This document shows, piece by piece, positions 11,670 through 12,461 of a stretch of DNA of 64,000 nt (position 1 is its first letter; every line of letters starts with the position of its first letter). Where the stretch lies: positions 711 to 64,710 of the forward strand of contig JAXJQQ010000061.1 in NCBI GenBank assembly GCA_036311065.1, in the 5' to 3' direction. Under the pieces are notes generated by a model that searched no databases, was not told the origin of the DNA, and was given only the letters and a program-made list of their open reading frames with translations. Both the position numbers and the translations under genes were made by a program. The DNA comes from Acutalibacteraceae bacterium (GTDB taxonomy: Bacteria; Bacillota; Clostridia; Oscillospirales; Acutalibacteraceae).

Positions 11670-11792
11670 TTATGCAGCGAACTTTGCAAGGATTTCTTCG
11701 ATAGCTGCTACGCCTTCGTCGAGACCGATAGCTACGAATACTTCCTGAATGAAAGCAAGCAATGAACCAAGAACTGTCTTAATTGCGTCCAT
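11670..11792 (-). CDS. small acidic amphipathic peptide P2 (40 aa), unannotated
   Basis: ATG 11792, TAA 11670-11672, GGAGGT SD. Translation: MDAIKTVLGSLLAFIQEVFVAIGLDEGVAAIEEILAKFAA. Confidence 0.72.
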   Translation of the reverse strand: MDAIKTVLGSLLAFIQEVFVAIGLDEGVAAIEEILAKFAA

Positions 11793-11846
11793 GTCTGATT
11801 ACCTCCGTTTAAAATTTGATGTTATTGACAACATCATTGTATCATA

Positions 11847-11875
11847 AGTTTAGCACTAATAATTCTTTTTGTCAA
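11847..11875 (-). promoter_or_regulatory. promoter of P2 (extended -10)
   Basis: Minus strand TTGACA (11870-11875), 17 nt, TAAACT (11847-11852) preceded by TGA (AGTGCTAAACT context). Confidence 0.65.
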
Positions 11876-11917
11876 TAAAATATTAATAATTTTATTAAAA
11901 TATTTTTAAAAAGTAAA

Positions 11918-11939
11918 AGACCTGCCAAAAGGCAGGTCT
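11918..11939 (-). terminator. terminator of P3
   Basis: AGACCTGCC-AAAA-GGCAGGTCT perfect hairpin followed by a U-rich run on the minus strand. Confidence 0.75.
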
Positions 11940-11953
11940 TTCTTTCTAAAAAA

Positions 11954-12088
11954 TTAGTCTTCGATTGCGGGGATTTTTCCCATGATTTCAGTAAGCTTTG
12001 CAGCAAGGTCATCCATACCGAGAGCCTTGAGAGCTTCTGCGAAGAAACCAAGAAGAGTTGAAATCATTGCGTTAAGATTTGCGGGCAT
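11954..12088 (-). CDS. small acidic amphipathic peptide P3 (44 aa), unannotated
   Basis: ATG 12088, TAA 11954-11956, GGAGGT SD. Translation: MPANLNAMISTLLGFFAEALKALGMDDLAAKLTEIMGKIPAIED. Confidence 0.75.
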   Translation of the reverse strand: MPANLNAMISTLLGFFAEALKALGMDDLAAKLTEIMGKIPAIED

Positions 12089-12142
12089 GTTCGTTTACCT
12101 CCGTTTAAAATTTGATATCATTTCTAATATCATTACAAGTTA

Positions 12143-12171
12143 AGTTTATCACTAATAATTCTTTTTGTCAA
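12143..12171 (-). promoter_or_regulatory. promoter of P3 (extended -10)
   Basis: Minus strand TTGACA (12166-12171), 17 nt, AGTGATAAACT with TAAACT at 12143-12148. Confidence 0.65.
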
Positions 12172-12207
12172 TAAAACGATAACATTTAATTCATCTGTTA
12201 TAAAAAA

Positions 12208-12230
12208 AGACTCGCCGTTAAGGCGAGTCT
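12208..12230 (-). terminator. terminator of P4
   Basis: AGACTCGCC-GTTAA-GGCGAGTCT hairpin followed by a U-run on the minus strand. Confidence 0.75.
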
Positions 12231-12239
12231 TACTCTTGA

Positions 12240-12377
12240 TTAAAGAGCCATATCATCCTCGGGAATAACAGCATAGTCCTTAAGCTTAGCTGCGATATCT
12301 TCCATACCAAGAGCAATGAGAGCTTCAGCAAGGAAGTTGATGAGCTTTACGAGCATATCTGTAAGATTTGCGGGCAT
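12240..12377 (-). CDS. small acidic amphipathic peptide P4 (45 aa), unannotated
   Basis: ATG 12377, TAA 12240-12242, GGAGGT SD. Translation: MPANLTDMLVKLINFLAEALIALGMEDIAAKLKDYAVIPEDDMAL. Confidence 0.75.
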   Translation of the reverse strand: MPANLTDMLVKLINFLAEALIALGMEDIAAKLKDYAVIPEDDMAL

Positions 12378-12432
12378 ATCGAGTTACCTCCTATTATAAA
12401 TTTGATACTGTTACCAATATCATTGTATGTTT

Positions 12433-12461
12433 AGTTTATCACTAATAATTAAAAATGTCAA
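12433..12461 (-). promoter_or_regulatory. promoter of P4 (extended -10)
   Basis: Minus strand TTGACA (12456-12461), 17 nt, AGTGATAAACT with TAAACT at 12433-12438. Confidence 0.65.

What the first reader, a model, noticed from the sequence alone, without database searches (positions are those of the whole stretch)
11792..12461. Each mini-gene is its own expression cassette, with a 5' UTR hairpin that covaries between copies
Six tiny genes have five promoters. P1, P2, P3, P4 and P6 are each preceded on the minus strand by TTGACA, a 17-nt spacer, and TAAACT or TAAAAT. P2-P4 also carry a TG-extended -10 (AGTGATAAACT or AGTGCTAAACT). P1-P4 each end in a separate GC hairpin plus U-run, and P6-P5 share one. 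The P2, P3 and P4 cassettes share a highly similar upstream block of about 80 nt (TTGACA.AAAAGAATTATTAGTG.TAAACT ... ATCAAATTT..A..GGAGGTAA). Inside that 5' UTR, just 5' of the SD, is an inverted repeat whose sequence differs between copies while pairing is kept: TGATGTT/AACATCA (11817-11836), TGATAT/ATATCA (12113-12132) and TGATA/TATCA (12403-12422). This pattern is expected for a selected RNA hairpin (a 5' mRNA stabiliser or a translational control element) or for a palindromic operator. Consensus promoters, strong SDs and individual terminators together suggest very high, independently tunable expression.
Basis: seen in the sequence. Interest (0 to 1): 0.6.

Follow-up and report, generated by a model that had tools for sequence, protein, structure and literature searches.

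The report
Start-of-message hairpins on mini-gene cassettes
Each of five tiny-gene units in this ruminant-gut bacterium has a near-ideal promoter, a small conserved RNA hairpin at the predicted start of its message, a strong ribosome site, optimal codons and its own terminator, so the hairpin is most likely an ordinary mRNA-protecting device on genes of an undescribed peptide family.

Summary
Six real mini-genes (39-45 aa) lie after purL on the minus strand. They have five near-consensus sigma-A promoters and five terminators. The P2, P3 and P4 leaders each carry an 8-bp stem with a tetraloop at the stated coordinates.

New here: P1 and P6 also have a hairpin, which starts 8 nt after the -10 box; in P2-P4 it starts 11 nt after. 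These offsets are fixed in every orthologous locus I fetched.

In 22 distinct leaders, 95% of stem cells pair and 4 of 8 pairs show changes on both sides. All 15 non-Watson-Crick pairs are G.U on the mRNA strand and none is A.C. Loop length varies from 3 to 7 nt, and the motif occurs nowhere else in the genome. This favours a selected mRNA hairpin over a DNA operator.

The hairpin does not cover the Shine-Dalgarno sequence. RNase J and RNase Y are encoded. Codon adaptation of the mini-genes is in the 97th-99.5th percentile.

Best reading (about 0.6): a 5'-terminal protective stem-loop within a high-expression cassette, a known device. No RNA-seq could be used, so the transcription starts and the stabilising effect are inferred. 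"Independently tunable" expression is not shown.

The peptides match no known family. The scan has already noted similar acidic mini-peptide arrays in other gut Clostridia.

The parts
13015..13027 (-). Terminator of purL, which insulates the mini-gene island from the pur operon
   Evidence: stem CTCTCAGAGGGAG followed by a T-run, directly after the purL stop (13057)
12918..12946 (-). P6/P5 promoter, TTGACA-17-TAAAAT
   Evidence: 11 of 12; invariant in the orthologs
12899..12910 (-). P6 leader hairpin CCUA-GUAA-UAGG, starting 8 nt after the -10 box
   Evidence: The loop is GUAA, GAAA or GGAA in orthologs. The stem varies to U.G (L011) and to C-G (L029).
12755..12874 (-). P6 mini-gene (39 aa), SD AAAGGAGG
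   Evidence: excess of third-codon-position changes; CAI 0.785
12583..12708 (-). P5 mini-gene (41 aa), no promoter of its own, own SD
12528..12553 (-). Terminator shared by P6 and P5
12433..12461 (-). P4 promoter, TTGACA-17-TAAACT with a TG extension
   Evidence: 10 of 12, TG yes
12403..12422 (-). P4 leader hairpin UGAUAUUG-GUAA-CAGUAUCA, starting 11 nt after the -10 box
   Evidence: -11.2 kcal/mol for the whole 55-nt leader fold, which also contains a small 3-bp hairpin near the start codon; z -3.7
12240..12377 (-). P4 mini-gene (45 aa), SD GGAGG at 12387-12391
   Evidence: AlphaFold2 helical hairpin, helices 3-22 and 26-35, pLDDT 78
12207..12231 (-). P4 terminator
12143..12171 (-). P3 promoter, with -35 flank and spacer identical to those of P2
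12113..12132 (-). P3 leader hairpin UGAUAUUA-GAAA-UGAUAUCA
11954..12088 (-). P3 mini-gene (44 aa). The cassette is absent from the related loci L008 and L009.
11915..11942 (-). P3 terminator
11847..11875 (-). P2 promoter, TTGACA-17-TAAACT with a TG extension
11817..11836 (-). P2 leader hairpin UGAUGUUG-UCAA-UAACAUCA
11670..11792 (-). P2 mini-gene (40 aa)
   Evidence: CAI 0.83
11628..11646 (-). P2 terminator
11544..11572 (-). P1 promoter, TTGACA-17-TAAAAT
   Evidence: 11 of 12
11502..11536 (-). P1 leader hairpin (35 nt), starting 8 nt after the -10 box. Its apical part holds the SD-like AAUGAGGUAAC.
   Evidence: The divergent orthologs L026/L027 have a different stem with the same apical sequence (for the sequences; the alternative stem was paired by eye, and the fold of L026 differs).
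11340..11477 (-). P1 mini-gene (45 aa)
11282..11325 (-). P1 terminator, a bidirectional hairpin shared with the convergent SDR gene
   Evidence: 19-bp stem with U-runs on both sides

Best explanation
Each cassette is a self-contained, constitutive high-expression unit. It has an A/T-rich upstream region, a near-consensus sigma-A promoter, a short leader, a GGAGG(T) Shine-Dalgarno sequence 5-7 nt before the ATG, a codon-optimised 39-45-codon ORF, and an intrinsic terminator.

The leader hairpin is a 5'-terminal stem-loop. If transcription starts at the usual 7th nucleotide after the -10 box, the stem begins about 1 nt (P1, P6) or 4 nt (P2-P4) from the triphosphate end. There it would hinder 5'-end-dependent decay, meaning RppH-type pyrophosphate removal and 5'-to-3' attack by RNase J. 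It would also leave the A/U-rich spacer and the SD single-stranded. The expected result is a long mRNA half-life and a high yield of peptide.

Shown here:
- The elements exist, and their position and pairing are conserved.
- The pairing is selected on the mRNA strand.
- The SD is not occluded in any predicted fold.
- RNase J and RNase Y are encoded in the genome.
- Codon adaptation is extreme.

Inferred, not shown:
- The transcription start sites.
- That the hairpin stabilises the message.
- That the terminators work.
For: Position. The stem starts 8 nt after the -10 box in all P6-type and in all but two P1-type leaders, and 11 nt after it in all 20 P4/P3/P2-type leaders from about 10 related loci. 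The two P1-type exceptions are L009, whose minimum-energy fold starts at nt 6 although its CUUUC arm is still at nt 8, and L026, whose stem is different. Three-gene and four-gene arrays of unrelated mini-peptides in other species of the genus also carry a hairpin. In the sister species L029, L030 and L055 my reading of the sequence puts the stem 7-11 nt after the -10 box, although the minimum-energy folds place the first paired base at nt 1-7. In G309 the folds start 7-12 nt after it.

Pairing. In 22 distinct leaders 95.4% of cells pair, and 4 of 8 pairs change on both sides. The covariation score is 0.277 against 0.205 +/- 0.020 in shuffles (0 of 500 reach it). Sliding the 3' arm by one to three columns cuts pairing to 26-74%: 26-45% for five of the six shifts and 74% for the -3 shift, where the low-complexity arm partly pairs again.

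Strand. There are 15 G.U cells and 0 A.C cells. The sense-strand RNA hairpin is more stable than the antisense one in 20 of 21 sequences, -6.1 against -3.8 kcal/mol.

Selection. Pairwise diversity is 0.08-0.26 in the stem arms. It is 0.28-0.61 in the loop, 0.21-0.32 just upstream of the stem, and 0.23-0.28 at third codon positions.

SD access. The SD is unpaired in essentially all folds.

Decay machinery. RNase J scores 642 bits (cut-off 400) and RNase Y 725 bits (cut-off 454).

Precedent. In B. subtilis, a hairpin or ribosome binding site at or near the 5' end stabilises long downstream regions, and RppH needs at least 2 unpaired 5' nucleotides (review PMC3997798). In Clostridium acetobutylicum, a small 5'-UTR stem-loop raised mRNA stability and expression 4.6-fold (Lee et al. 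2016, as cited in PMC7181999).

High expression. CAI against ribosomal proteins is 0.745-0.83, the 97th-99.5th percentile. purL scores 0.67 and the SDR gene 0.50.

Generality. Among 95 consensus promoters followed by an SD in this genome, 44% have a hairpin of -3 kcal/mol or better starting 5-12 nt after the -10 box, against 30% in shuffles.
Against: The starts are predicted only from spacing.

The hairpins are weak to moderate, -3.4 to about -11 kcal/mol. Two of the five are no more stable than shuffled leaders (z -0.5 and -0.06).

The chance rate of some hairpin at this position is high, about 30% at -3 kcal/mol and about 11% at -6 kcal/mol.

In P2-P4 about 4 nt (ACAA) would remain unpaired, which by the B. 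subtilis RppH rule is enough for access. The C at position 2 would make it a poor substrate; that preference comes from the review's statement that RppH favours G at position 2.

The sequences are close relatives, so shuffle-based significance is inflated. The number of independent substitution events is small, about 5-7 wobble events and 3-4 double changes.

Stem sequence is conserved beyond what pairing needs, so a sequence-specific reader cannot be excluded.
Confidence: 0.6

Rival explanations
1. The hairpin is mainly a translation insulator or enhancer. It locks up the first nucleotides of the leader so that they cannot pair with the SD or start region, and it presents the A/U-rich spacer as a ribosome standby site. 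It would act on translation yield rather than on mRNA decay. This could operate together with stabilisation.
For: The SD is unpaired in all folds. The spacer AAAUUUUAAAC between stem and SD is conserved, with diversity 0.09-0.14. The same CAAATTT...GGAGGTAA context precedes rpsH and gyrB across the genus, so it is a generic strong initiation region.
Against: Without the hairpin the leaders are so A/U-rich that they have little capacity to occlude the SD, so there is little to insulate against. The fixed distance to the -10 box, rather than to the SD, points to the 5' end as the relevant landmark: the stem-to-SD distance varies between classes while the offset from the -10 box is constant within each class.
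Confidence: 0.15
2. The hairpin is a sequence-specific binding site for an RNA-binding protein or small RNA that co-regulates the mini-peptide genes after transcription.
For: The outer stem UGAU.../...AUCA and the flanks CAA and AAU are almost invariant, and they recur in a leader of a different mini-peptide gene in another species (G291). The stem arms are more conserved than third codon positions.
Against: Other cassettes of the same arrays use unrelated stem sequences at the same position (P1, P6, L029, L030, L055, G309). Loops are free to vary in sequence and length. The covariance model finds no further copies in front of other genes in 117 genomes of the genus. Slow stem evolution is expected anyway, because single changes are deleterious.
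Confidence: 0.1
3. The inverted repeat is a DNA operator for a dimeric repressor that sits just downstream of the promoter.
For: It is a palindrome centred about 14 bp after the predicted start, a classic repressor position. It occurs at three co-located promoters.
Against: The spacer between the half-sites varies from 3 to 7 bp. All 15 asymmetric positions are G.T in the sense strand and none is A.C. Half-sites differ between promoters of the same genome while staying self-complementary. The strict palindrome occurs nowhere else behind a promoter in the genome; other hits are in coding DNA.
Confidence: 0.05
4. The repeat has no function of its own. It is a hitch-hiking piece of a recently duplicated regulatory block, and its pairing is preserved only because the copies are young.
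For: P2, P3 and P4 share one promoter-plus-leader module. P3 is a recent, lineage-specific cassette. Energies are modest.
Against: The coding parts behind the shared module have diverged to about 27% identity, whereas the stem keeps pairing through 4 double changes and about 7 wobble changes. Only one disruptive change was seen in pairs 1-7. Unrelated hairpins occupy the same position in other cassettes.
Confidence: 0.1

Closest known systems
5'-terminal stabiliser stem-loops of Firmicute mRNAs (B. subtilis aprE leader: 5' stem-loop plus ribosome binding, Hambraeus et al. 2002; synthetic 5'-UTR stem-loops in Clostridium acetobutylicum, Lee et al. 2016)
   Same: A small hairpin at or next to the 5' end of a short leader, followed by an accessible strong SD, on an abundantly expressed monocistronic message. 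The host has RNase J and RNase Y (PMC3997798; PMC7181999).
   Different: There is no sequence relationship. The start sites and the stabilising effect are not demonstrated here. The stems are shorter and more A/U-rich, and three cassettes would keep about 4 unpaired nucleotides.
E. coli ompA/papA-type 5' hairpins (Emory, Bouvet and Belasco 1992; listed in PMC3997798)
   Same: The principle is the same: base pairing at the extreme 5' end protects against 5'-end-dependent decay.
   Different: The nuclease set differs (RNase E and RppH in E. coli; RNase J, RNase Y and RppH here), and so do the organism and the sequence.
STAB-SD of Bacillus thuringiensis cryIIIA (Agaisse and Lereclus 1996; listed in PMC3997798)
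   Same: The P1-type leader carries an SD-like GAGGU (AAUGAGGUAAC) near the 5' end, far upstream of the true SD. It is conserved even where the surrounding stem is replaced (stem in L026/L027 paired by eye).
   Different: This applies to P1 only. The element lies in or on a hairpin, and no binding or stability data exist. The resemblance is a lead, not a test.
PeSL (promoter-early stem-loop) cassettes of T4-type phages (Arbiol et al. 2010, PMC2839356)
   Same: These are repeated compact units of a strong sigma-70-type promoter, a stem-loop and an SD in front of small orphan genes. Gene gain and swapping occur at the units. Here, P3 combines a P2-type promoter and leader with a P4-type ORF and is missing in relatives.
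   Different: PeSL stem-loops are G/C-rich terminators placed inside or around the promoter. Here the hairpin is A/U-rich, lies downstream of the -10 box in the transcript, and separate terminators exist. The host is a bacterial chromosome, not a phage.
Staphylococcal phenol-soluble modulins, especially the ~44-aa acidic PSM-beta peptides and delta-toxin, and multi-peptide leaderless bacteriocins
   Same: The products are leaderless amphipathic helical peptides of about 40-45 aa, encoded in tandem paralogs and built for high expression.
   Different: No homology is detectable in Pfam, NCBIfam, PHROGs, PADLOC, PDB profiles or Foldseek. The peptides are strongly anionic, unlike bacteriocins. No exporter lies next to them. 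Each gene has its own promoter, whereas psm genes form operons.

Membership tests
5'-terminal mRNA stabiliser stem-loop | The stem-loop lies at the 5' end of the primary transcript, with no more than a few unpaired nucleotides | tested here: inconclusive
   The stem starts 8 or 11 nt after the -10 hexamer in nearly every ortholog. That implies about 1 or 4 unpaired nucleotides if the start is the 7th nucleotide after the -10 box.
5'-terminal mRNA stabiliser stem-loop | Base pairing, not sequence, is what is maintained | tested here: met
   95.4% of cells are paired and 4 of 8 pairs change on both sides. There are 15 G.U and 0 A.C cells. Unrelated stems occupy the same position in other cassettes.
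5'-terminal mRNA stabiliser stem-loop | The ribosome binding site stays accessible | tested here: met
   The SD is unpaired in the minimum-energy and centroid folds of all leaders.
5'-terminal mRNA stabiliser stem-loop | Removing the stem shortens mRNA half-life in a way that depends on the 5'-end decay pathway | not testable with these tools
   Only the presence of RNase J and RNase Y genes could be checked.
Palindromic repressor operator | Fixed spacing between two symmetric half-sites | tested here: not met
   The loop or spacer is 3, 4, 5, 6 or 7 nt in different orthologs.
Palindromic repressor operator | Departures from symmetry show no strand bias | tested here: not met
   There are 15 G.T and 0 A.C cells in the sense strand. 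The sense RNA is more stable than the antisense in 20 of 21 sequences.
Palindromic repressor operator | Further sites exist in the genome (a regulon) or in front of a regulator gene | tested here: not met
   The strict motif occurs only in the island. Loose matches in the genome and in 100 genomes of the genus lie in coding DNA without promoters. One exception is a similar hairpin behind the promoter of a large enzyme gene on contig C58.
Any Rfam family | Match at or above the family's gathering score | tested here: not met
   the leaders have no match. The sub-threshold hits are the terminators resembling terminator-bearing sRNA models.
PeSL cassettes of T4-type phages | The stem-loop is a G/C-rich terminator placed within or beside the promoter | tested here: not met
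   Here the hairpin is A/U-rich and lies downstream of the -10 box. Separate G/C-rich terminators lie 40-90 nt upstream of each promoter. The definition was read in PMC2839356.
PeSL cassettes of T4-type phages | The cassettes are the joints at which genes are gained, lost or swapped | tested here: inconclusive
   There is one case. P3 has a P2-type promoter and leader with a P4-type ORF, and it is absent from L008 and L009.
Phenol-soluble modulins (PF05480) / leaderless bacteriocins | Sequence or fold homology to a described family | tested here: not met
   There are no hits in Pfam, NCBIfam, PHROGs, PADLOC or PDB profiles, and the best Foldseek E-value is 4.
STAB-SD | An SD-like sequence near the 5' end that binds 30S subunits and stabilises the mRNA | tested here: inconclusive
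   This applies to P1 only. AAUGAGGUAAC is conserved in six of the seven distinct leaders, with ACG or AUA variants of the AUG. L009 carries AUGAGGUUAC. Binding cannot be tested here.

The most novel reading that the evidence does not exclude
The promoter, 5' hairpin and SD together form a portable expression module. Recombination moves it between fast-evolving micro-protein genes in this Acutalibacteraceae genus, as a chromosomal counterpart of phage PeSL shuffling. Its conserved UGAU...AUCA hairpin would then be more than a passive stabiliser: it would be the recognition element of a dedicated post-transcriptional regulator that coordinates a whole repertoire of secreted or membrane-active acidic peptides.
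Probability: 0.1. Interest if true: 0.7.

Novelty: new member of a known kind. Interest (0 to 1): 0.4.

Why it matters
The hairpin itself is an expected engineering detail of very highly expressed Firmicute genes. Confirming it would mainly provide natural, compact promoter-leader parts for expression in gut Clostridia.

The more interesting point is what the cassettes drive. The products belong to an unnamed, genus-restricted, rapidly diversifying set of acidic amphipathic mini-proteins. Their promoters, leaders, ribosome sites, codon usage and terminators are all tuned for maximal output, so they are probably among the most abundant products of these uncultured ruminant-gut bacteria. Their function is unknown.

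Tried and rejected

Rfam scan of the region at E up to 10: only the terminators hit terminator-like sRNA models below threshold.

Protein family, PDB and fold searches for the peptides found nothing.

Family-wide HMM search found 0 matches in 200 other genomes of the family. A search of 1.84 billion representative proteins found 5 clusters, all from the same small clade.

Exact promoter-pattern scan of genome contigs gave one unrelated infC leader in a Eubacterium.

Operator-regulon search by palindrome pattern, in the genome and in the genus, gave only chance hits in coding DNA.

I tested whether the conserved spacer CAAATTT...GGAGGTAA is a specific element. It is the generic RBS context of rpsH, gyrB and others, so I rejected the idea.

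My first position-anchored comparison of the P6-type hairpin across species suggested 3 of 4 compensatory pairs. A homologous alignment shows only one (U-A to C-G) plus one U.G, so I withdrew the larger claim.

A hairpin in the P6-P5 spacer looked compensatory at first but is not conserved.

The covariance-model alignment of all 57 weak matches (A8) mixed non-homologous leaders, so I did not use it for counting.
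Full report
WHAT IS THERE

On the minus strand, directly after the purL gene (13057-16752) and its terminator (13027-13015), lie six small ORFs:
- P6, 12755-12874, 39 aa
- P5, 12583-12708, 41 aa
- P4, 12240-12377, 45 aa
- P3, 11954-12088, 44 aa
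- P2, 11670-11792, 40 aa
- P1, 11340-11477, 45 aa

The consensus scan finds TTGACA-17-TAAAAT in front of P6 and P1, matching 11 of 12 positions. It finds TTGACA-17-TAAACT with a TG extension in front of P4, P3 and P2, matching 10 of 12. G/C-rich terminators follow P5, P4, P3, P2 and P1. P5 has no promoter and shares the P6 promoter and one terminator. The shared block upstream of P2-P4 is real.

THE GENES ARE REAL AND BUILT FOR HIGH OUTPUT

Orthologs of all five peptide classes were recovered from about ten related metagenomic loci. In every class, differences pile up at third codon positions, for example 37/27/121 and 82/49/177 across positions 1/2/3.

Codon adaptation was measured against ribosomal-protein genes of the same genome. 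It is 0.745-0.83 for the six genes, the 97th-99.5th percentile of all ORFs of at least 150 aa. purL scores 0.67 and the neighbouring SDR gene 0.50.

AlphaFold2 predicts a helical hairpin with a disordered acidic tail for P4. No known protein family, solved structure or fold matches.

The family is tiny:
- It occurs only as these six copies in the genome.
- It was not found in 200 other genomes of the family.
- It forms five clusters among 1.84 billion representative proteins.

The host is an uncultured Acutalibacteraceae bacterium from the ruminant hindgut, judged from the record titles of close purL relatives.

THE HAIRPIN

Folding each leader shows that the inverted repeats in P4, P3 and P2 are 8-bp stems with tetraloops. 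P1 (35-nt hairpin, 11536-11502) and P6 (CCUA-GUAA-UAGG, 12910-12899) also carry a stem-loop at the equivalent place.

The stem starts 8 nt after the -10 hexamer in all P6-type and in all but two P1-type leaders, and 11 nt after it in all P4/P3/P2-type leaders. The two exceptions are L009, whose fold starts at nt 6, and L026, whose stem differs. With a start at the usual 7th nucleotide, the transcript would begin about 1 or 4 nt before the stem.

IS THE PAIRING SELECTED, AND IN WHICH MOLECULE?

I aligned 21 distinct P4/P3/P2-type leaders (A5) and added a homologous leader from another species (G291). That leader reads CAA-UGAUACCG-UAU-CGGUGUCA-AAU and precedes a different mini-peptide. On this set:
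- 95.4% of cells pair.
- Four of eight pairs change on both sides.
- The covariation score is 0.277 against 0.205 +/- 0.020 in shuffles (0 of 500 reach it).
- Sliding the 3' arm by one to three columns cuts pairing to 26-74%: 26-45% for five of the six shifts, 74% for the -3 shift.

Without G291, only one pair has a clean double change and the score is 0.221 against 0.176, reached by 2 of 500 shuffles. The evidence is real but modest. The sequences are close kin, so these counts overstate significance.

Two further observations discriminate between RNA and DNA.
- All 15 non-Watson-Crick pairs are G.U on the mRNA strand and none is A.C. The sense hairpin is more stable than the antisense one in 20 of 21 cases. 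I count about 5-7 independent wobble events against one disruptive event in pairs 1-7.
- The loop varies from 3 to 7 nt, which a dimeric DNA-binding protein would not tolerate.

Diversity is lowest in the stem arms (0.08-0.26). It is highest in the loop (0.28-0.61). Third codon positions lie at 0.23-0.28.

The palindrome is not part of a regulon. The strict motif occurs only in the island. Loose matches in this genome and in 100 genomes of the genus sit in coding DNA without promoters. A covariance model finds strong copies only in this genome and one close relative among 117 genomes of the genus.

IS IT A GENERAL DEVICE?

Sister species with 94% identical purL carry three quite different acidic mini-peptides at the same purL-SDR site. 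Each promoter-bearing cassette there has TTGACA-17-TAAAAT, and by my reading of the sequence a hairpin starting 7-11 nt after the -10 box; the minimum-energy folds place the first paired base earlier, at nt 1-7.

A four-gene array in another species (G309) shows hairpins whose folds start 7-12 nt after the -10 box.

The window's own genome has five more monocistronic acidic mini-genes elsewhere, most with a small hairpin 6-8 nt after the -10 box.

Among 95 consensus promoters followed by an SD in this genome, 44% have a hairpin of -3 kcal/mol or better starting 5-12 nt after the -10 box, against 30% of shuffled leaders. So 5'-proximal hairpins are a moderately enriched, general feature here. 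A weak hairpin at this place is also common by chance. The P6 hairpin (-3.4 kcal/mol) and the P2 hairpin (z -0.5) would not stand out on energy alone.

MECHANISM

The hairpin never includes the SD. The genome encodes RNase J and RNase Y above their curated cut-offs.

[quoted passage not shown] In Clostridium acetobutylicum, inserting a small 5'-UTR stem-loop raised mRNA stability and expression 4.6-fold (Lee et al. 2016, as summarised in PMC7181999).

The most economical reading is therefore a 5'-terminal protective stem-loop that, together with a very strong SD, makes a long-lived and heavily translated message. I put this at about 0.6.

The rivals are:
- a translation insulator or standby role (0.15; it could coexist with stabilisation)
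- a sequence-specific RNA-binding partner (0.1)
- a relic of duplication (0.1)
- a DNA operator (0.05)

MODULE SHUFFLING

P2, P3 and P4 share about 85% identical promoter-plus-leader DNA, while their peptides are 27-58% identical.

P3 has the -35 flank, spacer and leader of the P2 type joined to a P4-type ORF. It is missing from the related loci L008 and L009, where the P3 terminator directly follows the P4-type gene. This resembles gene swapping at the PeSL cassettes of T4-type phages in principle. PeSL stem-loops, however, are G/C-rich terminators inside or beside the promoter (PMC2839356), so this is an analogy and not membership.

VERDICT

The RNA-hairpin reading is supported over the operator reading. 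The stabiliser function and the independent transcription units remain inferred.

The element is a new example of a known kind of device. The undescribed peptide family it serves is the more interesting object. Earlier notes of this scan report similar arrays in other gut Clostridia; I did not test those.

Noticed in passing
own genome outside the window: offsets on the named strand as printed: contig C112 (-) 3177; C163 (-) 4066; C177 (+) 491; C177 (+) 15463; C177 (-) 32770: There are five more monocistronic genes for 37-47-aa acidic amphipathic peptides, for example MDALQKVFDTILKVLEIIKNFFADLFPQKDDAAEDETTVA. Each has a consensus promoter, a strong SD and a terminator. Most have a small hairpin 6-8 nt after the -10 box.
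   Followed up: partly
L029 5240-6030; L030 2040-2810; L055 1390-2160: Sister species with 94% identical purL carry three unrelated acidic mini-peptides at the same purL-SDR site (MKEFAAWLNAQVE..., MDFSAILEFVK..., MPAEVKDLINAW...). More distant relatives have purL followed directly by fhs or other genes. The site is a lineage-specific, fast-changing slot.
   Followed up: partly
L177 (genome G309) 67-1650: Another species of the genus has a four-gene array of mini-peptides. One is related to the L029 type and one to the P2 type. Each has TTGAC(A/T)-17-TA(A/C)AAT and a leader hairpin.
   Followed up: partly
L140 (G202) and L144 (G245): A 75-aa protein has a Sec signal peptide, an acidic linker and a C-terminal amphipathic segment resembling the mini-peptides (…YQVIADFFLEIFSFFKYIFYDVF…). 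This hints that such modules may act outside the cell.
   Followed up: no
window 11954-12171 compared with L008 1560-1650: The P3 cassette is a lineage-specific insertion. Its promoter and leader are of the P2 type and its ORF is of the P4 type. In L008 and L009 the P3 terminator directly follows the P4-type gene.
   Followed up: partly
L008 1-730; L024 179-727; L030 1820-1960: In some relatives a 182-aa IS200/RAYT-like gene, flanked by G/C-rich repeats, sits directly upstream of the mini-gene array. L030 has three tandem G/C-rich REP-like hairpins (GGTACGCCCTGCGTGGCGTACC) between purL and the array.
   Followed up: no
L012 3482-3916; L013 3517-3915; L015 3588-3992; L017 3329-3730: A DUF559 (endonuclease-like) gene lies between the last mini-gene and the SDR gene in several relatives. 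L020 has a 144-aa gene at the same place with no Pfam hit on record. The window has no such gene.
   Followed up: no
own genome contig C58, about 24640-24710 (+): A large enzyme gene, possibly a glycoside hydrolase judged only by eye from its N-terminus (MKYIWENPQIIKENKEDGH...), has TTGACA-17-TAAAAT followed 9 nt later by TGATAT-TTCTG-ATATCA. This hairpin resembles the P3/P4 one in sequence and position.
   Followed up: partly
window 11502-11536 (-); L026 and L027: The P1-type hairpin carries the SD-like AAUGAGGUAAC. This sequence is kept in the divergent orthologs L026 and L027, where the surrounding sequence is different; I paired an alternative 11-bp stem there by eye, and the minimum-energy fold differs. 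It could be a STAB-SD-like decoy, or a remnant of a duplicated RBS.
   Followed up: partly
window 11816-11845, 12104-12133, 12402-12431 (+): Plus-strand promoter-like hits (9 of 12) overlap the three hairpins. They arise because ATATCA/TGATAT read on the other strand resembles a -10 box. Nothing suggests antisense transcription.
   Followed up: no
own genome contig C28 (+), offset about 8642: A SCIFF-type cysteine-rich 48-aa peptide gene (MNRIKTIETKDIKKTVAHGGCGECQTSCQSACKTSCGVANQQCENQSK) lies behind a consensus promoter.
   Followed up: no
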